A stretch of 64,000 nucleotides of DNA from Candidatus Poriferihabitaceae bacterium (GTDB lineage: Bacteria; Pseudomonadota; Gammaproteobacteria; Arenicellales; Poriferihabitantaceae): the NCBI GenBank assembly GCA_965213885.1, contig OZ243919.1, forward strand, positions 1,372,692 through 1,436,691, written 5' to 3'. The stretch's first letter is position 1. Each line of letters opens with the position of its first letter. This document shows positions 10,322 through 40,652 of the stretch, one piece after another. Both the position numbers and the translations under genes were made by a program. The notes below the pieces were generated by a model. That model was given only the letters and a program-made list of their open reading frames with translations. It ran no database searches and was not told the origin of the DNA.

Positions 10322-10942
10322 TTAGATTCGATCCTCTAGATCCAATACTGGGTCGTCGCGCTCAATTTCAAAGGCCTGGGCCCCTTTGCCGGAGACTATC
10401 TGTACCTCCAATTCACGGGCGTTCGGAAAGATCGAGAAATAGGCGAAGTTGATTCGGGTCAGTGCGGACGGATTGGTGCAGTGCAATTCGTACTCGGCGT
10501 GGAACTCGGTATGCGCATTGCCATCCTCCTCGTGCTCCTCGTGTTCTTCGTGCTCCTCATGTTCTTCGTGCTCCTCATGTTCTTCGTGCTCCTCATGCTC
10601 TTCGTGCTCCTCATGCTCCTCGTGTACATCATCTACGAGACTCGCATGGGCATCGACAACCGAGCAATCCGCAGCTTCGGGCAGAAGAAACGAATTCAAT
10701 GGGCGTTCTAGTGCCTCGATCGCGTTCTCGATTGCCATTCGATCCTCGGCGCTTTTCGCAGGATGTTCAAATCCGACGATGTCTGCACCAGGTGAATTGA
10801 GTTCCATCACGATGCGATTGCCCTCAAACGCGATATTCAAATGACCGACACCATGTTCGTGGGCACCCAGATCACGCCGTTCCTGTGCGAGTAGCGGCAT
10901 GGATATGATCATAAATAATGCAGTGAATACAAAACTTTTCAT
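10322..10942 (-). CDS. DUF2796 / ZrgA-like periplasmic metal-binding protein with an (HEE)11 tract
   Basis: The signal peptide MKSFVFTALFMIISMPLLAQ follows the ATG at 10942 (the track start at 10954 is a TTG). His-rich motifs (HEHGVGH, HTEFHAEYELHC) fit DUF2796. The stop lies 1 nt from the ATPase start. Confidence 0.75.
   Translation of the reverse strand: MKSFVFTALFMIISMPLLAQERRDLGAHEHGVGHLNIAFEGNRIVMELNSPGADIVGFEHPAKSAEDRMAIENAIEALERPLNSFLLPEAADCSVVDAHASLVDDVHEEHEEHEEHEEHEEHEEHEEHEEHEEHEEHEEDGNAHTEFHAEYELHCTNPSALTRINFAYFSIFPNARELEVQIVSGKGAQAFEIERDDPVLDLEDRI
10526..10624. repeat. In-frame 9-nt repeat x11 encoding (HEE)11, with an 18-nt sub-period
   Basis: Counted directly on the + strand: ctcctcgtg / ttcttcgtg / ctcctcatg units, 11 in a row (99 nt). 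Confidence 0.95.
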
Positions 10943-11243
10943 CTTCTTTCTCAAATTGATATTACTAAACTAGAATATAGATTTCCGGTGGCAGAACCTG
11001 ATCTACCCCGCATGCCTTTGTCATTGGCTACCCCTGGATTCCGTAACGGCCTGCCATTCGATTGATCCTGAATTCCTGTGACTGAACGGAAATTTGGCGA
11101 CTGTCTGGGGAGACAACGCATTGAGTACACGGTCACCACCATGAAGGAGCCCGTTGGCTTCACCTGGGAAGTGAAACGGGCTACAGGCGTCTCAGCCTGG
11201 TACATGGGATCAACGTGTCTTACTTCGGCATTTTTTCCGGCTG

Positions 11244-11268
11244 AATATTGTTATAATATAACATAACA
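11244..11268. promoter_or_regulatory. Zur-box-like operator overlapping a plausible sigma70 promoter that faces the zinc-uptake operon
   Basis: GAATATTGTTATAATATAACATAAC contains the perfect palindrome TGTTATAATATAACA (11249-11263). This matches the core of the gammaproteobacterial Zur consensus GAAATGTTATAnTATAACATTTC. On the - strand, TTGTTA-17 nt-TTATAA could serve as -35/-10. Confidence 0.6.
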
Positions 11269-11277
11269 TAACATAAC
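11258..11277. repeat. (ATAAC)4 pentanucleotide repeat abutting and overlapping the Zur box
   Basis: ataac ataac ataac ataac read directly. Each unit repeats the TATAACA half-site of the operator. Confidence 0.9.
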
Positions 11278-11643
11278 AAAAATCCGAAACAACAGAATCG
11301 CTCGAGGATCATTCTGGAAATACCGAAAGAAAACCTGTCTTCCTGTCTGCTCTTGCCGATGACAATGCCGGTCAGGTGCGAATCGAATCCAACCGGTTAT
11401 GTCGCAGTAAACACAAGATGGGACTGACTCCCGGATCGATTGCTTGGGAAATGCGACGCCCGGGGGCAAGTGACAAGGAAATTGACGCCTGTCAACATGG
11501 GACGACACATGGGACGACAGTATCCGGGCCGGTGTCCGGCTTGCGGGAGGGCGAATCCTGCAATGAATCCAGAAACCCCGATCCAGACAACGTATATGAG
11601 CAGGTCGTTCACGGGAGCCTGCCCAAGTGCGGTTGTACCGCAG

Positions 11644-11736
<93 letters not shown>

Positions 11737-15798: not shown

Positions 15799-18700
15799 TC
15801 ACCACCGCACGGTCATCTCGAATCCCACCCCATGCACCGGGGCGGTCCCCATGCTCTCCCGCCGCGTCGCCCGCACGCCGAAGGACAGGTCCGGAACGCC
15901 CGACGATACCCGCGACAGCCGCCAACCAACCGTCACGTCACGCCCGTCTCCCATGAACCCGAACCCCGCATGGGGACTCCCCGTGAAACGGCCCCCCAGT
16001 GCCGGGAAGCCATAGGCCGCCTCCACCGTCCAGCGGGCGGCAGTCTCGCCGCTGCCCGTGCGGTCCTCCAGCGGATCGGCCCGGAACAGCGCATCAAGCC
16101 CACCCTCGGCCTGTCCGCCCATCTCCTGACGAAGCGCAAGCGACAGGCCACGCTCCGAGGCCGGGTCCGGATCGAAGGCAAGCGAAGCCGCAAACCCACG
16201 GTCCTCGAGATCATCCGCCTCATGCGTGATCAGCGTACGGCCCGACAGGTCCAGCGACAGTCCGAGACTCGGGTCCACCCAGGCAATGCCCCCGCCAACC
16301 TCCACCCCCGATCCACTCTCCGCATCCCCGCCGTCCCGGCGCAGTCCCAGCTCCACCTTCGGCGTGACATGACCTCCGCCCTCGGTGGCGATGCGCCAGC
16401 TGCCCTCCAGACCGAGTCGCAGGCGGGTTACATCAGAGTCCGACGCTGCCAGTTCGCTGGTCCGGTCCGACTCCGTCCGCGACCACAGTGCATCCGAGGT
16501 GATTGCCAGGGCCGGACCGGATCCCTGTGCCGGCGGTGCGATCACATCCCCCCGAAGGCCCGCCGACGCCATCGTCCAGGTGAGGTCGGAGCGAAGCGAG
16601 CCGCCCACCTCCGGCTTGAGGGTCACTTCGCCCGTGCCGTAACCCAGCGCGCCCCACAGCTTCAGCCTCTCCGATACCCGGATCGCGCCATAGGGAACCG
16701 CCGCCGTCAGCGACGACTCCACCGTTCCATCGCCCTCCCGGACCGCACCGCCGCACAGAACCTCCCTCGTCTGCGGGTCCATGTCATGATCGGCATCCGT
16801 ACAGAGCTGCGACGCGGCGCGGGACCCGGTCTCCGTATCCCGGTAACCGCCTTCCCCGCCGCTCTGCAGCAGCGCCAGGCCCACCAGCCACTGGCCCCGC
16901 GCATAGTCGGTCCCCAGCAGCGCCGTGGTCGCCTCTCCGTCCAGCGAGAACGTCCCCTCCCTGCCATCGAAGCTCGAGTGCGCCGCACGGCCCCACAGTG
17001 CCAGGCTGCCCCCCGAGGAATCCCCGGGGCCCGTCGCCGTGAAATGACTGCCCAGCAGCAGTTCCTGCAGCGTCATGGTCCGGATGCCAGGGGGCGCCAT
17101 GCCGTCGACTCCTTCATTCGTGTCAATCCCGTCGATGCCGAAGCCATGGAGAACAGGGCCGGATGGATTGAATGGGCTGAATGGGTCGGATTGATTGAGT
17201 TGGCTGAATTCGCTGAATGGATCCAATGGATCAGACTGATCAGAGTCCCCATCGCCGGAATCCCGGGGCTGCAGGGAAATGCCCCCGAACGTGCCTTCGG
17301 TGCCCGCCGTGCGCGGGGCCGACAGTCGGCCCGAGATTCCGTCCAGCGCCTGCTCCGCCACCGTCCGACCGAACCGCGACAGCCACGCCGCCGGCATCGG
17401 GTCGTCGTTGACGATGGTGCCGACCGCGACGTCGTCCGTAATCGACACCGGCACCTTCTGGCCCGAGCGGTACATGAACGCGTCGAAGAGCTCGACCTCG
17501 AACGTCTCCGGATTCTCGTCGTGGCTGTCGTCGCGAATGCCGATACGGATTTCTGTGAACGTTTCGCCGGCCCTGATCCGGCTTCCTATGCGCCACGCGC
17601 GCGGGACGTGGCTATAGTCCCTGTTCGCCGTTGCCGAGACTGGCGTCGATTCGCGCGTCGCGTAGGCGAAGCGGACATCCTGGTCCGTCGCCTTGCTCAA
17701 GCGTACCGTGAACCAACCGTTGCGTTCGTTCTCCTTCAGGGTGGCATCGGCAATCGAGATCGTCGGACCCGACGTCGGCGTCGTTGCATCGTTGTCGGAT
17801 ACCGCCACCGTGGCCGCATTCTCCGGCGATGCCGCCACCGTGTAGCCCGTGCCGGCATCGACGGTTGCCGTGACCGAGCCGTCCGGCTCGTCCGCGCCGT
17901 CGTCGTCGGTGGCGACCTCGAAGGTCGCGCTGCCCGTGACCGGGACGGTGACCGTCCGTGATCCCATCTCGCCCGAAGCGGCGAAGTCGCCGCTCTGGGC
18001 AACGCTCAAGGTCACATCGAGCGGTGCCGCCGGCACCGGGCTGGCTGTCAGCGTAAAGGAGGCCGGGCTGCCTTCCGTCACACCCGTACCGGCCACAATG
18101 CGGATCACCGGCTCGTCATTGTCGCGCACCGCCACCGCGGCGCTGCCCTGGCCCGTGGCGATCGTATAGCCCGTGCCCGTGCCGAGGGTGACGGACACCG
18201 AGCCGTCGGCCTCGTCCGCATCATCATCCACCGTGCCCACGGAGAGTGCGGTGCTGGTATCCCCTGCTGTCAGCGTCACCGTCCGGTGACCTGCGCCGGG
18301 GGTATCCAGATACTCGCCGGACTGGGCGACGGTCCAGGTGACCGTGAGGTCGGCAGAAGGCGCGGGATCGGCGGTGAGGGTGAAGGTGGCATTGCCGCCC
18401 TCGTCCACGGCGGACCCCGCCCGGAGGCTGAGCTCGGGCGTAGCGGGTGTCACGTCATTGTCGCGCACCGCCACCGTACCGCTGCCCTTGCCCGTGGCCA
18501 CCGTGTATCCGGTGCCCGTGTCGAGGGTGACGCTCACCGAGCCGTCGGCCTCGTCCGCCGTGTCGTCCACCGTCGCCACCGAGAGATCGGTGCTGGTCGT
18601 GCCCGCCGCCAGCACCACCGTCCGGCTGCCCGCACCGGGCGCGGCCAGATACTCGCCGCTCTGGGCGACGGTCCAGGTGACCGTCAGGTCGGTGGCCGGG

Positions 18701-21594
18701 GCCGGATCGGCCGTGACTGTGAAGGTGGCATTGCCGCCCTCGTCCACGGCGGAGCCCGCCCGGAGGCTGAGCTCGGGCGTGGCGGGTGTGACCGGCTGTT
18801 CCTCGGCCTGCGCTTCCTCTTCCTGCGGTGCTTCCTCCTGCGGCAGGTTCGCCAGGCATTCGAGCGCCGGCGCCACCGGCGCCCAGCGCTTCAGGCCCCG
18901 ATCCGCTTGCGCCTGCGCCTCGGCGACGGTCATCGGGCGGTTGCTGTACTGGTTACTCACCCCGAAGGCGGCCAGCACCCGGCTCCAGCGCTCGACATGG
19001 CCCGAGGTCCGCCAGGTCTCGCTCGCAGCCAGCTGGGCGTCGGCCAGCAGGGCGTCGGAGACGCAAGAGGGTGTCTGGCTGTCAGCGCTCTCGGCGCTGG
19101 CACTCAGGGCATCACTGTCCGGCCCCACCTTGAGCGTTGCTGTGGCGGCGAGTGTGTCGAGTGGCTGCACCACGCCGTTACCATCCACGTATTCCGGTGT
19201 CACCGTGACCGTCAGTGTCATCGCTTCCTGGGCGTTGTGCTGGATGGTGGCCGTGGTGCCCGTTACGCTCTCGGCACCGGAGACGGCGGTCTGCTGATCG
19301 CTGCTCTCGGCCTCCCAGGACACGTCATAGGAGGTGGCGTGTGCCACCGCGTCCCAGGTGACGCTGGCGCTGGCGTCGTCCACCGCCGCCAGCTGCAGGT
19401 TGGAGACTGTTTCAGTGGGCGCCTGCGCCGGCGCGGCCTGCGCGGGCGCGTTGTTGCCCACGGGGCATAGCCCGCCATTGATCCGCACGCACTTGCTGCC
19501 CGGAGCCAGCCGGAACGGACGGCCGGTGGGCGTTACCTTGAAGGTCGCGCTGCCCGCCCCGGCATTGTGCCGGATCCCGATGGGGACCCTGAACTCGGAG
19601 AAACCCCTGGTGAGTGCCTTGTAGCCCGACTTGCCCAGACCCTGCTTGCGGTTGTCGTTGACCACATCGCCCGTGTCCTCGACCTCCCACTTGACATAGA
19701 GGTCAGTGGGCAGGCCGCCATTGACCGAGCGGATGGTGAACCTGGCGTGGTGCGAGTAGTCCTTCTTGTCCTGGTACCCCGACACCTTCAGAACGGGCAG
19801 GTCGTCCTTGATGGTGATGACCGTGCTGATGGTCTCGTTGGCAATGCGGGTCGAGTTCGGGATCTCCAGCAGGTCCGTGGTCTCCTTGCCTGACACGGTG
19901 CTCTTCTGCAGCCGGATTTTCACCGACTCGTCCGGCTCATCTGAGCTGCCATCGTCGAACAGCGTCAGATCGAGGTAGGTGCCGAGCTCCCCCTTCGGCA
20001 GGGTCGCGAGGTGGCAGCCCGTCGTGACCTTCATGCCGTCCGGGCGCACCAGCGTGTAGTCGTCGCCGAGCGTCGCCGAGCCCGTCACGCAATACTCGAA
20101 ATGCGCATCGACCTGCAGCGGCCGGTCGGGTATCGAGGAATGCGCAGGGGCCAGAGCGATCTTGATCCTGTGCCCACTGTCGACCCCGTCCCTCAGGACC
20201 GTCCCGTGCTCGTCGACCTTGAGCAGGGGCTTCGCTTCGTCGTCCTGGATGTATATCGTGATCCGGTTCGGCGAGCCCACTGAGTGGGTGCCCGTGCCTA
20301 CCATCTCCAGGACCACCGTCTCGGTTCCCTCGATCAGTGTGTCCTCGATGACCGTGATCGGCAGCGACGCAAGCGTCTTCCCCTTCGCCAGCGTCATCGT
20401 GCCCCGGTTGGTGTTCCGGTTGTAGCCGCCGCGCAGGCGGTAGTCGGTGCCGTAGGTTGCCGTGCTGCCCCCGTCCTCATTCCCGGGTACCACCCGGTAG
20501 GTTACCGTGTTATCCCAACCGGCCTGCGCCGAGAACGGGATGCCGACATCCTGATCGAGGGACGGTCTGCCTTCTCTCACGCCCGGTTTGCCGGCCCAGG
20601 TGCCGAAGGCAAGCGGCTGCTGGTGATAATCGTCGTCATCGATCACCAGGGTCTTGATACTGAACACGCTGTCGATCCCGTAGGGTGAAGGGAGCGGCTT
20701 TGCCGGGTTCGGATTCAATGCGATATTGACCGTTTCCTGCCCCGATATCACCAGCCGCTCCTTGCCGTCGACCCACATCGGCACCTGCTCGTGGTGGTTG
20801 TCTCCAAGGACCTGGATGCGGAACCGCTTCAGTGGTTGGTTGGCGGCGATGGACGAATCGACGCAGCCACTGTTTCTGGTCTGCCAGGCGCTCCCCACCC
20901 GTTCCTGTATCAGATAGTCGTCCTGCTCGGCATTGCCGCCGGTGCGCCGCGTGGCGCTGCCGGAGAAGCACAGGCGGAAGGGCAAGGCCGATGAAGAAGT
21001 CTGGTCGGTCTTGACCTGGAACTCCACATTCTTCGGCGCTGAATCCGTCTCCTTCACGCATGTGTAGGTTTTGCTGCTGCCTCCACCAACAGGGCAAGTA
21101 TCCTTGCCCCGGTCCAGCGAGAGCGAGAGAAACCGGGTGGCGTTGGTTGTGGGGGTGACGGGAGTGACTTGCGCGCCCTTGATCGTGAAGGTGTCGGAAA
21201 GGTTTGGAGGGAATGTCACGTCCTGCTGGTTCCCAAACCGAAGCAAGCCTCTCGGCTGCTTGCCACCTGTGACAGTCACCGTTACCGGATCGTCCACTGT
21301 GATCGCCGAACCGCTGTAGGCGAGAGTGATCTGCGCGGAGCGATGGCCTTGGGTAGCGCCACCGTGCGAGTGAGTAGCCTCACGCGCGAGTAGCTTGCCG
21401 CTTGCGATCGTCAGTCCCGAAGGCGCACCCGACAATGTAATCAGGGCAAGACCTGCTGCGCTCAGCCTGGCTTCGGCGGTCGGGTTTTTCAAACCCTCAG
21501 CATTTCCCGGAATCCGGTCATCCGGGTGAATGTATTTCTCTACGGCACCACCGCTCCCGCCAGCCGACATAAAAGTGGCGTTCTTCGGAATCAA
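15799..21594 (-). CDS. Giant type Va autotransporter: Calx-beta-rich, FN3-containing passenger plus C-terminal beta-barrel. The true N-terminus probably lies upstream (see findings).
   Basis: 1931 codons from the first canonical start (TTG). There are multiple Calx-beta-like modules (e.g. GTDYRLRGG...TLASLPITVIEDTLIEGTETVVLEM and DDTADEADGSVSVTLDTGTGYTV) and an FN3-like segment (SNLQLAAVDDASASVTWDAVAHATSYDVSW). The C-terminal ~300 aa match the autotransporter beta-domain pattern (LALWGRAAHSSFDGREGTFSLDGEATTALLGTDYARGQWLVGLAL...) and end MTVRW. Confidence 0.85.
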   Translation of the reverse strand: MIPKNATFMSAGGSGGAVEKYIHPDDRIPGNAEGLKNPTAEARLSAAGLALITLSGAPSGLTIASGKLLAREATHSHGGATQGHRSAQITLAYSGSAITVDDPVTVTVTGGKQPRGLLRFGNQQDVTFPPNLSDTFTIKGAQVTPVTPTTNATRFLSLSLDRGKDTCPVGGGSSKTYTCVKETDSAPKNVEFQVKTDQTSSSALPFRLCFSGSATRRTGGNAEQDDYLIQERVGSAWQTRNSGCVDSSIAANQPLKRFRIQVLGDNHHEQVPMWVDGKERLVISGQETVNIALNPNPAKPLPSPYGIDSVFSIKTLVIDDDDYHQQPLAFGTWAGKPGVREGRPSLDQDVGIPFSAQAGWDNTVTYRVVPGNEDGGSTATYGTDYRLRGGYNRNTNRGTMTLAKGKTLASLPITVIEDTLIEGTETVVLEMVGTGTHSVGSPNRITIYIQDDEAKPLLKVDEHGTVLRDGVDSGHRIKIALAPAHSSIPDRPLQVDAHFEYCVTGSATLGDDYTLVRPDGMKVTTGCHLATLPKGELGTYLDLTLFDDGSSDEPDESVKIRLQKSTVSGKETTDLLEIPNSTRIANETISTVITIKDDLPVLKVSGYQDKKDYSHHARFTIRSVNGGLPTDLYVKWEVEDTGDVVNDNRKQGLGKSGYKALTRGFSEFRVPIGIRHNAGAGSATFKVTPTGRPFRLAPGSKCVRINGGLCPVGNNAPAQAAPAQAPTETVSNLQLAAVDDASASVTWDAVAHATSYDVSWEAESSDQQTAVSGAESVTGTTATIQHNAQEAMTLTVTVTPEYVDGNGVVQPLDTLAATATLKVGPDSDALSASAESADSQTPSCVSDALLADAQLAASETWRTSGHVERWSRVLAAFGVSNQYSNRPMTVAEAQAQADRGLKRWAPVAPALECLANLPQEEAPQEEEAQAEEQPVTPATPELSLRAGSAVDEGGNATFTVTADPAPATDLTVTWTVAQSGEYLAAPGAGSRTVVLAAGTTSTDLSVATVDDTADEADGSVSVTLDTGTGYTVATGKGSGTVAVRDNDVTPATPELSLRAGSAVDEGGNATFTLTADPAPSADLTVTWTVAQSGEYLDTPGAGHRTVTLTAGDTSTALSVGTVDDDADEADGSVSVTLGTGTGYTIATGQGSAAVAVRDNDEPVIRIVAGTGVTEGSPASFTLTASPVPAAPLDVTLSVAQSGDFAASGEMGSRTVTVPVTGSATFEVATDDDGADEPDGSVTATVDAGTGYTVAASPENAATVAVSDNDATTPTSGPTISIADATLKENERNGWFTVRLSKATDQDVRFAYATRESTPVSATANRDYSHVPRAWRIGSRIRAGETFTEIRIGIRDDSHDENPETFEVELFDAFMYRSGQKVPVSITDDVAVGTIVNDDPMPAAWLSRFGRTVAEQALDGISGRLSAPRTAGTEGTFGGISLQPRDSGDGDSDQSDPLDPFSEFSQLNQSDPFSPFNPSGPVLHGFGIDGIDTNEGVDGMAPPGIRTMTLQELLLGSHFTATGPGDSSGGSLALWGRAAHSSFDGREGTFSLDGEATTALLGTDYARGQWLVGLALLQSGGEGGYRDTETGSRAASQLCTDADHDMDPQTREVLCGGAVREGDGTVESSLTAAVPYGAIRVSERLKLWGALGYGTGEVTLKPEVGGSLRSDLTWTMASAGLRGDVIAPPAQGSGPALAITSDALWSRTESDRTSELAASDSDVTRLRLGLEGSWRIATEGGGHVTPKVELGLRRDGGDAESGSGVEVGGGIAWVDPSLGLSLDLSGRTLITHEADDLEDRGFAASLAFDPDPASERGLSLALRQEMGGQAEGGLDALFRADPLEDRTGSGETAARWTVEAAYGFPALGGRFTGSPHAGFGFMGDGRDVTVGWRLSRVSSGVPDLSFGVRATRRESMGTAPVHGVGFEMTVRW
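18116..18793. repeat. Two near-identical tandem 339-bp (113-codon) units inside the autotransporter, with more diverged copies to the left
   Basis: tcattgtcgcgcaccgccaccg recurs at 18116 and 18455. The peptides are TPATPELSLRAGSAVDEGGNATFT(V/L)TADPAP..DLTVTWTVAQSGEYL...VAVRDND, twice. Confidence 0.8.
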
Positions 21595-21810
21595 TGTGAT
21601 CGTCGCCCCATCCAGGGAAGCGGCCGCTATCTCGGTGGGGTCAAGAACCAGGGAAGGCGCACTCTGTGCCTGTGCACCAGCGGCAAGGCCAAGCAGGAGT
21701 GCAATGGCTGCAACACGGCGCAGGACGCCGGCAAGGGTGCAGCGGGCGGGAAGGTCGGACTCAGATAGAGAGGATACTAGGCGACGAAGCCATGAAAATA
21801 CAAACAGGGC

Positions 21811-21875
21811 GGCTCGGCTCGGCTCGGCTCGGCTCGGCTCGGCTCGGCTCGGCTCGGCTCGGCTCGGCTCGGCTC
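21811..21875. repeat. Perfect pentanucleotide simple-sequence repeat (GGCTC)13; GAGCC on the coding strand of the autotransporter
   Basis: Counted directly: 13 uninterrupted units (65 nt), flanked by the partial units gggc and ggc. Confidence 0.97.
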
Positions 21876-22227
21876 GGCAATCATGGTCTGACCATCATCT
21901 GACCATGTCAACCCCGGGGTCGCGCCCGAATCCGTACAGGACGCCCAAGGGAATTCTCGGAATTTCCCAATGTCGGTGGTGCGTTGCTGTCCGTTCCCGT
22001 GGTTCCGGTCGTTCATCGCTGTGCCTCTTCTGTGGATTGCTTCAGGAATCCTGATAAGGATTGCATGGGCTACGGGACCGGCCGGATACCAACTCCCGCC
22101 GCCCGCGCAGAACAGGCGCGATTCTCCTACAGAACCACTCCATTCTCAAGACTGAGTGACCGCGGCCGGAATAACCACGGATTGACCTGCTCCGGCTGTT
22201 GCTTGCCGGGCTGCCAGCGCCCGAATC

Positions 22228-38884: not shown

Positions 38885-40096
38885 TCAGGAACAGCCGGAT
38901 GACTCGGATATGGCCTTCTTGAGCCCTCCCACCATGTGCTCGCACAACCTGGGGTCGAACTGTTTCGGCAGGATATAGCCGGGTCCGAACTCCAGGATTT
39001 CCCGGGGATAGATTTCCCGCACCTCCCCGGGAGCCTTGATCCTGGCCAGTGAAGCCAGACAATGTACCGCCGCCGTCATCAGCGAGGCGTCGATACCGGT
39101 CAGTTTTTCGTCAAGCGCGGCACGAAACACGAAGGGGAACACCAGCGAATTGTTCACCTGGTTCGGATAGTCCGACCGGCCTGTAGCAACGACGATCTGT
39201 TCGCTCACCTCGAAAATTTCCTCCGGGGTGATTTCCGGGTCGGGATTGGACAGGGCGAACACGATCGAACGCTTCGCCATGGACCGGATCATTTCTTTGG
39301 AGATCATGCCGGGACCGGAAAGCCCGATCAGCACATCCGCATCTATCAGGGCCTCCGCGGCACTCCGAAGGGGCGTGTTGGCGGCAAACGCCTGCTTGTA
39401 GACATTGAGATCATCCCTGGCGGTGTGAATGACTCCGCGGCTGTCCACCATCACGATGTTGTCTCGATTGGCACCAAGACTGCAAAGAAGCTTGGCTGTG
39501 GCAATACCCGCCGCCCCTGCCCCCTGGAACACGATGCGGACGTCCTCAAGCCGTTTCCCCTGGATTTCCAGGGCGTTGACAAGTCCCGCACAAGCCACAA
39601 TCGCGGTGCCATGCTGGTCATCGTGGAAAACCGGGATGTCCAGCCTTTCCTTCAATGCCTCCTCGATGGCAAAACACTTCGGAGCCGCGATATCCTCCAG
39701 ATTGATCCCGCCGAATGTGGGTGCGATATTGGCTACCGTTTCAATGAACCCTTCCGTGCTGGGGGCCTCCACCTCGATATCAAAGACATCGATATCCGCG
39801 AACAGTTTGAACAGGACGGACTTCCCTTCCATGACCGGCTTTCCTGCCACCGCACCCACATTACCCAGGCCGAGCACTGCGGATCCATCCGTCACCACCG
39901 CCACCAGATTTCCCTTGTTGGTGTAGCGGTATGCCTCCTTCTCGTCCGCGGCGATGGCTTCAACCGGACCTGCCACCCCCGGGGTATAGGCCAGCGAAAG
40001 ATCGTGCTGCCCGTCGAACGGCTTGGTCGGCCGTACCGAGGTTTTTCCCGGCCGCGGATGCTCGTGGTAATCGAGGGCAAGTTTCTTGTAATCCAT
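38885..40096 (-). CDS. maeB: NAD(P)-dependent malic enzyme, short form without a PTA domain
   Basis: MDYKKLALDYHEHPRPGK...LSLAYTPGVA...VVTDGSAVLGLGNVG. I prefer the start at M34 of the track ORF (403 aa). Confidence 0.88.
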   Translation of the reverse strand: MDYKKLALDYHEHPRPGKTSVRPTKPFDGQHDLSLAYTPGVAGPVEAIAADEKEAYRYTNKGNLVAVVTDGSAVLGLGNVGAVAGKPVMEGKSVLFKLFADIDVFDIEVEAPSTEGFIETVANIAPTFGGINLEDIAAPKCFAIEEALKERLDIPVFHDDQHGTAIVACAGLVNALEIQGKRLEDVRIVFQGAGAAGIATAKLLCSLGANRDNIVMVDSRGVIHTARDDLNVYKQAFAANTPLRSAAEALIDADVLIGLSGPGMISKEMIRSMAKRSIVFALSNPDPEITPEEIFEVSEQIVVATGRSDYPNQVNNSLVFPFVFRAALDEKLTGIDASLMTAAVHCLASLARIKAPGEVREIYPREILEFGPGYILPKQFDPRLCEHMVGGLKKAISESSGCS

Positions 40097-40652
40097 GAGA
40101 AACGGGATGGATGGCGAACAAATGGGAAGCTGCGTATTGTACGCCACCGTACATGGGGTACGCGAATGATGATTCCGATTCACAGCGATTTTCAAAGATG
40201 GCCTTTAATTTGATCTGTTATTGATCTCTTTACGATTTTCGGGATCAGTGGATGATGTCTTTGGTGTTGTGTTGGTGAATCAGGGAGGCTGTGGGCCGGA
40301 CGGCCCGGCAGTGCCTCGCCATCGCGGCACTGCCGATGCTACCCCCAGCTCGAGAACACTGCAGACGCCAACGTTGAGTAATATCGGGGCTCAATAGCGC
40401 TGCTTCCCCACTCGCTTCACGACAGGCGTTGCCGCCCGCCATGCACCACTCGCTCCCGCCCGGTGGGATGCACCTTTACCGGGCAGGAGTGGAACCTGCT
40501 GGACTGCGATGAATGGTTTCCGTGATGTCATCACATCCTCCATCTCAGGACTTGCTCTGGCGCAACTCCGAGAATAATATTGCATGATAATTTACTAAAT
40601 TTATTGTCATATTAGCCACCGGGCGTTATATTTGCCAACGGAGGTCATGGCT

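What the first reader, a model, noticed from the sequence alone, without database searches (positions are those of the whole stretch)
21594..22016. Perfect (GAGCC)13 repeat between an ATG and the signal peptide of the giant autotransporter: a likely slipped-strand ON/OFF switch, currently OFF
What the sequence shows on the - strand:

- An ATG at 21884 is followed by ATT GCC and then 13 perfect GAGCC units (21875-21811). An open frame runs back from this ATG to ATG 22016.
- In that frame, translation stops at TAG 21779-21777, only 35 codons from 21884.
- The autotransporter reading frame is open from a TGA at 21897-21895 all the way down through the repeat. Between 21720 and 21667 it encodes a textbook signal peptide (..GVLRRVAAIALLLGLAAGAQA/QSAP..).
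- That frame contains no ATG, GTG or TTG until the TTG at 21594, which lies after the signal peptide.
- The distance 21884 to 21594 is 290 nt, so the frame is off by 2. With 12 units (285 nt) or 15 units (300 nt), the ATG is fused in frame to the signal peptide and the whole 1931-codon passenger.

This is the architecture of Neisseria opa genes, where CTCTT pentamers lie inside the signal-peptide coding region. I do not know of it being described for a Calx-beta autotransporter.

An alternative reading is that the protein starts at a non-canonical codon (for example the CTG of LRRV). In that case the tract sits in the 5' UTR or promoter, where length changes could still modulate expression.
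Basis: partly seen in the sequence, partly recalled or inferred. Interest (0 to 1): 0.8.

Follow-up and report, generated by a model that had tools for sequence, protein, structure and literature searches.

The report
Repeat-tract on/off switch, giant surface protein
A perfect 13-copy 5-base repeat sits between the only usable start codons and the export signal of a 2,000-residue surface protein, and nearly every relative in other uncultured marine bacteria has a similar slippery repeat at the same spot, so this is very probably a random on/off switch that is currently off.

Summary

In silico, 9, 12, 15 or 18 units fuse ATG 21884 (and an upstream ATG 22016, which has a GAGG ribosome-binding site) to a ~2,030-codon ORF. 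All other counts stop 11-16 codons past the tract.

The decisive evidence is comparative:
- 22 of 23 homologous 5' ends from other MAGs (at least one from a sponge metagenome) carry a perfect tract at the same place.
- Tract units are 1, 5, 7 or 8 nt, never a multiple of 3, and copy numbers differ between loci.
- No other such tract occurs in 252 kb examined.
- Two ~95%-identical orthologues differ only by C12 versus C11. The first gives an intact 3,574-aa ORF; the second is frame-broken.

Verdict: this is a slipped-strand contingency locus, most likely a translational ON/OFF switch (opa-like logic), now OFF.

One caveat is unresolved. A promoter-like module (TTGACA ... -10-like box) abuts the tract, as in Haemophilus hmw1A, so a 5'-UTR "volume control" or dual control is not excluded.

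The mechanism is known; the setting (uncultured marine symbiont adhesin family) appears undescribed.

The parts
21811..21875 (-). Perfect (GAGCC)13 tract, the hypermutable element (TRF limits 21810-21878)
21882..21884 (-). Proximal start candidate ATG (M-I-A, then the tract). It is out of frame by 2 with the main ORF at 13 units and overlaps the -10-like hexamers GACCAT and CATGAT.
   Evidence: The same 'ATGATWGCC + tract' occurs in L018/L026, where that region supplies the start of the ON form.
22014..22016 (-). Distal start candidate ATG in the same frame as ATG 21884, with GAGG (22027-22024) 7 nt upstream
21876..22016 (-). Leader ORF (MNDRNHGNGQQRTTDIGKFREFPWASCTDSGATPGLTWSDDGQTMIA) that runs into the tract
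   Evidence: GC3 is the highest position in this frame, which is weak evidence.
22121..22149 (-). Promoter-like site TTGAGA-17-GAGAAT between the ssb stop and ATG 22016 (candidate distal promoter)
   Evidence: This is a consensus match only.
21880..21911 (-). Promoter-like module abutting the tract: TTGACA 21911-21906, then GACCAT (17-nt spacer) or CATGAT (20-nt spacer). Role unresolved.
   Evidence: TTGACA is conserved in WIN, L004, L008, L010, L012, L013, L014, L022, L025, L027 and L028. It was not reported by the scan.
21895..21897 (-). TGA that closes the main reading frame upstream of the tract
21730..21810 (-). Conserved N-terminal extension in the main frame (ALFVFSWLRRLVSSLSESDLPARCTLA). 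CTG 21807-21805 sits where relatives have ATG, GTG or TTG, five codons before Trp 21792-21790.
21667..21729 (-). Signal-peptide core GVLRRVAAIALLLGLAAGAQA, with the predicted cleavage before QSAP
   Evidence: RR, hydrophobic core and AQAQ are conserved. No signal-peptide predictor was available.
21777..21779 (-). TAG that ends the ATG frame at 10, 13 or 16 units
21761..21763 (-). TGA that ends the ATG frame at 11, 14 or 17 units
15799..21666 (-). Mature giant protein (about 1,955 aa). It has a conserved ~170-aa N-terminal domain, Calx-beta/LapA/fn3-like repeats (best Calx-beta hit about 17482-17766) and a C-terminal outer-membrane beta-barrel (15802-16899) ending ..FEMTVRW.

Best explanation
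The tract is the switch of a contingency locus.

How it works (inferred): during replication the (GAGCC)n run gains or loses units by slipped-strand mispairing. Translation starts upstream of the tract, at ATG 22016 (GAGG ribosome-binding site) and/or ATG 21884, and reads through it.
- When the unit count is a multiple of 3 (12 or 15 are the nearest), the leader is fused to a conserved N-terminal extension, the signal peptide and the ~1,955-residue passenger plus outer-membrane barrel. The cell then displays the giant adhesin-like protein.
- At every other count, including the present 13, ribosomes stop 11-16 codons after the tract and the protein is not made.

What is shown:
- the anatomy and the frame arithmetic;
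- the absence of any canonical start after the tract;
- family-wide conservation of a tract at this position;
- tract-length differences between related loci;
- one ON/OFF orthologue pair.

What is inferred:
- that the window's own population is heterogeneous;
- that the mRNA includes the upstream ATGs;
- that the switch serves bet-hedging at a host or phage interface.

A second, tract-proximal promoter may add transcriptional or 5'-UTR control.
For: 1. Frame logic.
- Units of 9, 12, 15 or 18 give 2,021-2,080-codon ORFs. All other counts give 30-91 aa.

2. No alternative start.
- The main frame has no ATG, GTG or TTG from TGA 21897 to TTG 21594, although the 2,031-codon frame is intact.

3. 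Same position in relatives.
- Perfect tracts lie 5' of the homologous N-terminal extension in L001-L004, L006-L019, L022 and L025-L028.
- The units are AGCCG, ACCGCAG, GCTGGATC, CCGGTCG, ACGAGCC, CGGATCAC, ACCGGATT, GGATGCC, GCCGGATC, GTCGCCGG, GCCGGGTC, GCCGCCGA, poly-C and poly-G.
- Unit sizes are 1, 5, 7 and 8 only.

4. Specificity.
- In 252 kb, such tracts occur only at these 5' ends.

5. Length instability.
- AGCCG occurs at 10, at least 12.8, 13 and 18 copies.
- GCTGGATC occurs at 5.9 versus 15.9 copies in two paralogues of one MAG whose flanks match at 58 of 60 positions.
- GGATGCC occurs at 14.6 versus 15.6 copies.

6. Direct ON/OFF pair.
- L026 (C12) has ATG CAT GAT AGC C.. in frame and a 3,574-aa ORF.
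- L018 (C11) is frame-broken, has no other start, and still has at least 1,141 codons open.
- Their flanks are ~95% identical.

7. Other loci that lack a start after the tract but keep long ORFs, and that have upstream ATGs with good ribosome-binding sites.
- L028: AGGAGG-8-ATG, C10, OFF.
- L025: GAGGAG-7-ATG, OFF.
- L006: OFF, versus its paralogue L017, ON.

8. Upstream ATGs.
- All 15 testable loci have an upstream ATG that is open into the tract. Shuffles predict 11.4; P(all) = 0.012.
Against: 1. A perfect TTGACA lies 23-32 nt 5' of the tract in about 11 loci, and an AT-rich -10-like hexamer ends 0-4 nt before the first repeat in most. A promoter there would start the mRNA inside the tract and leave out ATG 21884 and ATG 22016.

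2. Most relatives have ATG, GTG or TTG five or six codons before the conserved Trp, just after the tract. In those loci the tract could be pure 5' UTR.

3. ATG 21884 has no Shine-Dalgarno sequence.

4. The leader regions of L008 and L010 show no coding signature (2 synonymous versus 11 non-synonymous codon differences).

5. The ON product would carry a 71-115-residue stretch before the cleavage site, which is long for a Sec signal. It has no ESPR match.

6. The ON:OFF ratio among loci (5:13) equals the one third expected by chance, so it does not by itself show that frame matters.

7. No second genome of the window's own species was found, so variation at this exact locus is unobserved.
Confidence: 0.6

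Rival explanations
1. hmw1A-type 'volume control'. The TTGACA/-10-like module just 5' of the tract is the working promoter, the tract is the start of the 5' UTR, and unit number tunes transcript or translation level in a graded way rather than by reading frame. In the window the start would be the non-canonical CTG 21807-21805, so expression is low whatever the count. A hybrid is possible, with a distal promoter giving the frame-dependent mRNA and a proximal promoter giving a tract-led mRNA.
For: Promoter-like features:
- TTGACA is conserved in about 11 loci.
- -10-like boxes abut the tract: TATAAT in L006, L017, L019, L022 and L027; TACAAT with an upstream TG in L025; TATTAT and TATTGT in L013 and L014; CATGAT in the window.
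- Putative upstream factor sites are present: GGGATATTTCG x3 in L004 and GGGAATTCCC-like palindromes.

Start codons: ATG, GTG or TTG lies 5-6 codons before the conserved Trp in at least 12 loci, abutting the last repeat in L013 and L014.

Precedent: in hmw1A the heptamer tract overlaps the -10 box of promoter P2, lies in the 5' UTR, and more repeats give less HMW1 (PMC8262952).
Against: - The window, L006, L018, L025 and L028 have no canonical start between the tract and the hydrophobic core of the signal peptide, yet keep long open frames.
- The L018/L026 pair behaves as a frame switch, with its promoter (TTGACA-17-TATACT) about 140 nt upstream of the ATG.
- The spacer from TTGACA to the good -10 boxes is 20-25 nt, outside the sigma-70 optimum. 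The scan did not call this site.
- No unit length is a multiple of 3 among 12 different multi-base units.
- TTGACA is read as Leu-Thr in the frame of the leader ORF in 11 of 12 loci, despite spacing differences of 30-39 nt.
Confidence: 0.22
2. Decaying gene with a neutral microsatellite. The gene has lost its start codon (ATG to CTG five codons before the Trp), and the tract is a leftover with no current function in this genome.
For: - The window has CTG where relatives have ATG, GTG or TTG.
- Several family members show mid-gene frame breaks or truncation by mobile elements (L004, L009, L012, L023, L024, L025).
Against: - 2,031 codons remain open in a 60% GC window, and the barrel and N-terminal domain are well conserved.
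- The tract is perfect over 13 units. A neutral microsatellite in a dead gene should accumulate interruptions.
- One unit lost restores a complete ORF from two ATGs.
Confidence: 0.06
3. Repeat array as a binding platform. The repeats would be sites for a regulatory protein or RNA-binding factor, as proposed for the TAACTGA heptamers in front of Beggiatoaceae genes, with copy number setting occupancy.
For: Position just 5' of the coding body. Precedent in PMC4679880.
Against: - The unit sequence differs from locus to locus, even within one genome: L006 CGGATCAC versus L017 ACCGGATT; L008 GGATGCC versus L009 GCTGGATC. Homopolymers can replace the repeats. No common motif is therefore presented to a factor.
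- The RNA fold of the tract region is no better than shuffled sequence (z = 0.84).
Confidence: 0.03
4. The count of 13 is an assembly consensus or an error, and the real dominant allele is in frame (12 or 15).
For: - Repeat tracts are error-prone in assemblies.
- Three short-read contigs of relatives break inside their tracts (L003, L011, L016).
Against: - The tract is only 65 nt and perfect.
- Long-read contigs of relatives carry comparable or longer tracts.
- This reading concerns the current state, not the nature of the element.
Confidence: 0.05

Closest known systems
Neisseria opa genes (CTCTT pentamer repeats in the signal-peptide coding region; translational ON/OFF). From established knowledge, not re-read here.
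   Same: - A pentanucleotide unit lies between the start codon and the mature protein of an outer-membrane surface protein.
- The frame is restored every third unit.
- Out-of-frame states stop shortly after the tract.
- It is a multigene family in which most copies are OFF.
   Different: - No sequence or fold relationship to Opa, which is an 8-strand barrel of about 250 aa.
- Here the tract lies upstream of a long conserved N-terminal extension, not inside the hydrophobic core.
- The unit differs from locus to locus (1, 5, 7 or 8 nt).
- The organisms are uncultured marine MAG lineages, not human pathogens.
- A promoter-like module abuts the tract.
Haemophilus influenzae hmw1A/hmw2A heptamer (ATCTTTC)n tract (PMC8262952)
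   Same: - Large secreted adhesin.
- 7-nt-class repeats of 13-24 copies.
- The tract starts at or next to a -10 box.
- Copy number varies between isolates.
   Different: - In hmw the tract is non-coding (5' UTR of promoter P2), a separate ribosome-binding site and start lie downstream, and expression falls gradually with more repeats.
- In the window there is no start codon downstream of the tract, and the frame arithmetic gives a strict 3-unit period.
Bartonella badE and other trimeric autotransporter adhesin contingency loci (mononucleotide SSR frameshifts; PMC11466379)
   Same: - Homopolymer or SSR frameshifts switch an adhesin ON and OFF.
- ON/OFF variation is seen among natural isolates, as with the C11/C12 pair L018/L026.
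   Different: - Those are trimeric autotransporters of a mammalian pathogen, with the SSRs inside the gene body.
- Here the tract is at the extreme 5' end and is mostly made of 5-8-nt units.
Phase-variable classical autotransporters of Neisseria and Haemophilus (for example NalP, AutA, Lav, with poly-C or tetranucleotide tracts). From memory.
   Same: A T5SS-type surface protein switched by an intragenic 5' SSR.
   Different: - Different passenger (Calx-beta/LapA-like giant).
- The barrel scores below the Pfam cut-off and is modelled with more than 12 strands.
- The same N-terminal module is joined to a T9SS tail in one relative.
TAACTGA heptamer direct repeats upstream of start codons in marine Beggiatoaceae (PMC4679880)
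   Same: Short tandem repeats immediately 5' of coding regions in marine Gammaproteobacteria, with poor Shine-Dalgarno sites.
   Different: - There, one fixed heptamer is used genome-wide, at 2-6 copies, in front of unrelated genes, and is proposed to be a factor-binding site.
- Here there are many different units, long perfect arrays, and one gene family.

Membership tests
Translational SSR contingency locus (opa-type logic) | Long, perfect tandem tract whose unit length is not a multiple of 3 | tested here: met
   (GAGCC)13, 100% matches, score 138.
Translational SSR contingency locus (opa-type logic) | The tract lies between a start codon and the body of the ORF, with no other start that could bypass it | tested here: met
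   ATG 22016 and ATG 21884 are open into the tract. The main frame has no ATG, GTG or TTG until TTG 21594, after the signal peptide. Whether the mRNA contains those ATGs is not known.
Translational SSR contingency locus (opa-type logic) | Frame restored with period 3 in unit number; other states end early | tested here: met
   In-silico alleles of 9-18 units.
Translational SSR contingency locus (opa-type logic) | Tract length differs between closely related genomes or cells, giving ON and OFF alleles | tested here: inconclusive
   Met for relatives: C12 ON versus C11 OFF in ~95%-identical L026 and L018, and 5.9 versus 15.9 units in paralogues with near-identical flanks. No second genome of the window's own species was found.
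Translational SSR contingency locus (opa-type logic) | Protein expression switches with tract length | not testable with these tools
   Needs reporters, western blot or proteomics.
hmw1A-type promoter-proximal / 5'-UTR SSR | The tract abuts or overlaps the -10 box of the active promoter and is transcribed as 5' UTR | tested here: inconclusive
   TTGACA 21911-21906 plus GACCAT or CATGAT lie next to the tract, and the layout recurs in relatives. The spacers are 17 to 25 nt, the site was not called by the scan, and no transcription start data exist.
hmw1A-type promoter-proximal / 5'-UTR SSR | Start codon and ribosome-binding site downstream of the tract, independent of frame | tested here: not met
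   The window has CTG at the position where relatives have ATG, GTG or TTG, and no canonical start before the end of the signal peptide.
Classical (type Va) autotransporter | C-terminal Autotransporter beta-domain (PF03797) | tested here: inconclusive
   The window's C-terminus scores 18.4 bits, E = 0.002, below the cut-off of 26. 15 of 38 homologues (51-74% identical) match, best 1.8e-9. There was no PDB sequence hit.
Classical (type Va) autotransporter | 12-strand outer-membrane barrel with a linker helix; C-terminal aromatic residue | tested here: inconclusive
   The AlphaFold2 model (pLDDT 74.5) is an all-beta barrel of about 14-16 long strands with one short helix. Foldseek hits are generic outer-membrane barrels, including EstA, NalP and EspP, at TM 0.3-0.4. 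The protein ends in ..TVRW.
Classical (type Va) autotransporter | N-terminal Sec signal peptide | tested here: met
   RR, a hydrophobic core and AQA/Q are conserved in all aligned homologues. This is by inspection; no predictor was available.
ESPR extended signal peptide (PF13018) | Match to the ESPR motif at the N-terminus | tested here: not met
   No Pfam hit at E <= 10 for five natural or reconstructed N-termini.
TAACTGA-type regulatory heptamer repeats | One fixed unit sequence reused in front of many genes | tested here: not met
   12 different multi-base units plus homopolymers, restricted to one gene family.

The most novel reading that the evidence does not exclude
The tract is one instance of a portable 5' 'switch cassette': promoter-like module, short leader ORF, fast-evolving SSR, conserved Trp/Arg...PPESS extension, signal peptide and a ~170-aa N-terminal domain. 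This cassette would head a whole family of giant surface proteins in uncultured, largely sponge-associated bacteria of several phyla. It is joined to T5SS barrels in Proteobacteria and to a T9SS tail in Rhodothermales. It would be controlled at two levels at once: frame-dependent translation from a distal promoter, and tract-length-dependent output from a tract-proximal promoter. If so, stochastic surface variation, so far a hallmark of pathogens, would be a general strategy of beneficial marine symbionts.
Probability: 0.35. Interest if true: 0.8.

Novelty: new member of a known kind. Interest (0 to 1): 0.62.

Why it matters
Simple-sequence contingency loci are textbook devices of host-restricted pathogens such as Neisseria, Haemophilus, Campylobacter and Bartonella.

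Here the same device heads a family of giant adhesin-like proteins in uncultured marine bacteria. At least one relative comes from a Lamellodysidea sponge metagenome (PRJNA320446). I found no paper linking phase variation to sponge symbionts.

If confirmed, three things follow:
- Symbiont populations inside a host would be mixtures of cells with and without particular giant surface proteins. This bears on how symbionts avoid host phagocytosis, host immunity or phage.
- It would explain why these genes are so often mis-called, truncated or broken at contig ends in MAGs.
- It gives a simple, testable read-out: per-read tract length in existing long-read data.

The family also offers a natural experiment in SSR turnover, because the unit changes while the position and the 'not a multiple of 3' rule are kept.

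Tried and rejected
- Exact-protein look-up of the neighbouring ssb, to find other assemblies of the same species: not on record.
- Metagenome-contig scan with the N-terminal profile: 169 pattern matches, none a relative. No within-species comparison for the window was therefore possible.
- Synteny: none of the homologous loci has ssb or the MFS gene nearby.
- Rfam: nothing at the locus.
- RNA fold of tract plus leader: no better than shuffles (z = 0.84).
- Pfam ESPR on natural or reconstructed N-termini: no hit.
- NCBIfam on the giant protein: no hit.
- PDB sequence search of the C-terminus: no hit.
- Codon-position test on the L008/L010 leaders: no coding signature.
- GC3 of the window leader ORF: weakly coding-like, too short to count.
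- A sigma-54 reading (GG-N10-GC) and a leaderless-mRNA reading of ATG 21884 were checked by hand against and rejected, because the spacing does not fit.
- The idea that an ATG always directly precedes the tract was dropped. It held in the first four loci but fails in L006, L013, L014, L017 and L022.
- One table ('starts after tract') was mis-phased by my script and is not used. One search gives the correct main-frame starts.
- Barrel homologues L023 and L024 turned out to be 5'-truncated remnants next to integrases and transposases, and are uninformative.

Full report
OBSERVATION

On the - strand the window reads ...ggggTTGACAtggtcagatgatggtcagaccATGattgcc(GAGCC)13gccCTGtttgtattttcaTGGcttcgtcgc....
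- Tandem Repeats Finder reports 21810-21878, period 5, 13.8 copies, 100% identity, score 138.
- It is the only perfect tract of at least 4 copies and 25 nt in the 64-kb window.
  - ATG 21884 stops at TAG 21779-21777 after 35 codons.
  - The large frame is open from TGA 21897-21895 through the tract.
  - The first ATG/GTG/TTG in that frame is TTG 21594, after the signal peptide ..GVLRRVAAIALLLGLAAGAQA/QSAP.
- Rebuilding the locus with 9-18 units shows ORFs of 2,021-2,080 codons at 9, 12, 15 and 18 units. All other counts give 30-91 codons, ending at TAG 21779 or TGA 21763.

THE GENE AND ITS SETTING

The gene order is uvrA (+), an MFS transporter, ssb (-), then the tract and the giant ORF, then an AAA-ATPase/PD-(D/E)XK gene.

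The 2,031-codon frame has Calx-beta, LapA-like and fn3-like repeats and ends ..FEMTVRW.

Its last 366 residues:
- have more than 290 homologues at 51-74% identity in MAGs assigned to many phyla, several named 'autotransporter outer membrane beta-barrel domain-containing protein';
- score 18.4 bits on PF03797, below the cut-off of 26, while 15 of 38 homologues match;
- fold in AlphaFold2 (pLDDT 74.5) as a barrel of about 14-16 long strands that resembles outer-membrane barrels, including EstA, NalP and EspP, at low TM-score.

'Autotransporter-like' is therefore reasonable. A classical 12-strand type Va barrel is not shown.

THE SAME PLACE IN RELATIVES

The N-terminal 394 residues have few relatives: 6 in the word-indexed search and 41 among 1.84 billion cluster representatives.

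Reading their DNA, and the loci from a scan of one genome per species, gave a consistent picture. A perfect tract lies just 5' of a conserved N-terminal extension (x-W-[LR]-R-R ... S-P-P-E-S-S ... RR, hydrophobic core, AQAQ) in 22 of 23 loci whose 5' end is present.

| Unit | Loci and copy numbers |
|---|---|
| AGCCG | 10, at least 12.8, 13, 18 copies (L013, L011, window, L014) |
| ACCGCAG | L012 |
| GCTGGATC | 5.9 and 15.9 copies in two paralogues of one MAG (L009, L016) |
| CCGGTCG | L003 |
| ACGAGCC | L004 |
| CGGATCAC and ACCGGATT | two paralogues of a complete Arenicellales chromosome (L006, L017) |
| GGATGCC | 15.6 and 14.6 copies (L008, L010) |
| GCCGGATC | L027, L010 |
| GTCGCCGG | L022 |
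| GCCGGGTC | L019 |
| GCCGCCGA | about 25 copies (L025) |
| Homopolymers | C17, G13, C11, C12, C10 (L007, L015, L018, L026, L028) |

Sources.

- Only the distant L005 (37% identity) lacks a tract.
- No multi-base unit has a length that is a multiple of 3.
- Flanks can be nearly identical while copy number differs three-fold: L009 and L016 match at 58 of 60 flank positions.

Together these are the signature of a hypermutable site that selection keeps in place while its sequence turns over.

A DIRECT ON/OFF PAIR

Protein P0135 from the representative search starts MHDSPPPPRYRRGRF... Its locus L026 aligns with L018 at about 95% identity around the tract, and the two differ there by one C.
- C12 puts ATG CAT GAT AGC C.. 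in frame with a 3,574-residue ORF (Calx-beta plus a T9SS Por_Secre_tail).
- C11 in L018 breaks the frame. No other start exists before the hydrophobic core, yet at least 1,141 codons remain open.
- A good promoter (TTGACA-17-TATACT) lies about 140 nt upstream of that ATG.

This is translational phase variation as far as sequence can show it. The window shares the local motif: ATGATTGCC plus tract, versus ATGATAGCC plus tract in L018.

WHY I FAVOUR THE FRAME MODEL FOR THE WINDOW

- Five loci have no canonical start between the tract and the signal-peptide core but keep long ORFs: the window, L006, L018, L025 and L028.
- Each has an upstream ATG whose frame runs into the tract. Several of these ATGs have good Shine-Dalgarno sites:
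  - L028: AGGAGG-8-ATG
  - L025: GAGGAG-7-ATG
  - L022: GGAGG-5-ATG
  - window: GAGG-7-ATG 22016
- In the Arenicellales genome the paralogue L017 is in frame from a homologous ATG, and L006 is one unit off.
- The stretch just after the tract in that pair differs by two synonymous changes, two non-synonymous changes and a 3-nt indel, with no start codon in between.
- All 15 testable loci have an upstream ATG open into the tract, against 11.4 expected from shuffles (P = 0.012).
- Simulating plus or minus 1-2 units turns every OFF locus ON except L004.
- For the window, a consensus-like promoter (TTGAGA-17-GAGAAT, 22149-22121) lies upstream of ATG 22016.

WHAT DOES NOT FIT

- A perfect TTGACA lies 23-32 nt 5' of the tract in about 11 loci, including the window (21911-21906).
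- An AT-rich -10-like hexamer ends 0-4 nt before the first repeat in most loci. Examples are TATAAT, TGgTACAAT, TATTAT and TAGTAT; in the window it is GACCAT or CATGAT, overlapping ATG 21884.
- This is the layout of the P2 promoter of Haemophilus hmw1A. There a heptamer tract overlaps the -10 box, is transcribed as 5' UTR and lowers expression as it lengthens (PMC8262952).
- Most relatives also have ATG (9 loci), GTG (3) or TTG (1) five to six codons before the conserved Trp, right after the tract. The window has CTG there.
- A transcript from the proximal module would lack the upstream ATGs.

I could not reconcile the two sets of features by sequence alone. Two further observations complicate the promoter reading:
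- The spacers to the good -10 boxes are 20-25 nt.
- TTGACA is read as Leu-Thr in the leader frame in 11 of 12 loci, despite spacing differences of 30-39 nt.

The possibilities are two promoters (dual control) or a conserved leader that merely looks like a promoter. Under either model the window's gene is silent or nearly silent at 13 units.

COMPARISON WITH KNOWN SYSTEMS

- The logic is that of Neisseria opa: a pentamer between the start and the mature outer-membrane protein, restored every third unit. There is no homology to Opa, and the tract lies upstream of a long extension rather than in the hydrophobic core.
- The anatomy next to the tract resembles hmw1A.
- Homopolymer switching of adhesins among natural isolates is paralleled by Bartonella badE (PMC11466379).
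- It is unlike the fixed TAACTGA heptamers of Beggiatoaceae (PMC4679880), because the unit differs from locus to locus.

NOVELTY

The mechanism is a known kind. What is new is where it occurs:
- a rare family of giant surface proteins in uncultured marine bacteria, with L003 from a Lamellodysidea sponge metagenome;
- a tract position conserved across bins of several phyla and two secretion systems.

Full-text searches found nothing on phase variation in sponge symbionts, nor in the paper describing that metagenome.

LIMITS

- There is no second genome of the window's species, no transcript or protein data, and no signal-peptide predictor.
- MAG taxonomy comes from record titles only.
- My recollection that the SB/RHO/COS bins are sponge MAGs is from memory.

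Noticed in passing
window 11253-11278 (and 10322-10954, 10530-10624): (GTTAT)5 on the - strand runs into the palindrome TGTTATATTATAACA. This looks like a Zur-box operator upstream of a zrgA (PF10986) / ABC / FtsX-MacB zinc-uptake operon. The 18-nt x5.3 repeat at 10530-10624 lies inside zrgA and is probably a His/Glu-rich stretch.
   Followed up: partly
window 40287-40492 (-): Full-length match to Rfam RF02005 (group II intron D1-D4-6, 83 bits) next to a malic-enzyme gene (38885-40195). No reverse transcriptase was identified.
   Followed up: no
window 18114-18789: 339-nt tandem duplication (2.0 copies, 84% identity) inside the giant gene, corresponding to two adjacent Calx-beta-like repeats.
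   Followed up: no
window 15800-21000 versus flanks: The giant gene is more GC-rich (0.64-0.71) than its neighbours (0.53-0.62). It lies between core genes (uvrA-ssb) and a tRNA (11647-11734), which may indicate an acquired island.
   Followed up: no
L004 1577-1641, 4199-4285, 5691-5727: The same long-read contig carries other, imperfect heptamer arrays upstream of unrelated genes: GAATTAC x9.3 before a Fic-domain gene and ATTAGGA x12.4. It also has three direct GGGATATTTCG repeats just 5' of the TTGACT of the family gene. This genome may hold many repeat-controlled loci.
   Followed up: no
L006 2915-2945; L017 2775-2935; L004 5945-5975; L013 after the tract: REP-like palindromes (for example cattcccgcgaatgcgggaatcc, translated '..IPANAGIH..') lie inside the N-terminal extension that stays open in the main frame.
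   Followed up: partly
L026 1501-12225 (P0135): In the Rhodothermales-type member, the conserved N-terminal domain and 5' tract are joined to a T9SS Por_Secre_tail instead of a T5SS barrel. The 5' module therefore travels between secretion systems.
   Followed up: partly
L028 1255-1266 and 1318-1327: A 2.4-unit AGCCG remnant sits at the usual tract position, after TTGACA-23-TAGTAT. A C10 run 50 nt further on is the only long tract. This looks like replacement of one hypermutable tract by another.
   Followed up: partly
L025 ~9975; L004 6834; L012 3546; L009 3912; L023, L024: Several family members have mid-gene frame breaks, or are 5'-truncated next to integrases or transposases. These could be pseudogenes, assembly errors or further switch points.
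   Followed up: no
one search hit list: The barrel domain is 55-73% identical across MAGs labelled Rhodospirillaceae, Chromatiales, Defluviicoccus, Spirochaetaceae, Deltaproteobacteria and Acidobacteriota. This suggests horizontal spread within one habitat, or binning errors.
   Followed up: no
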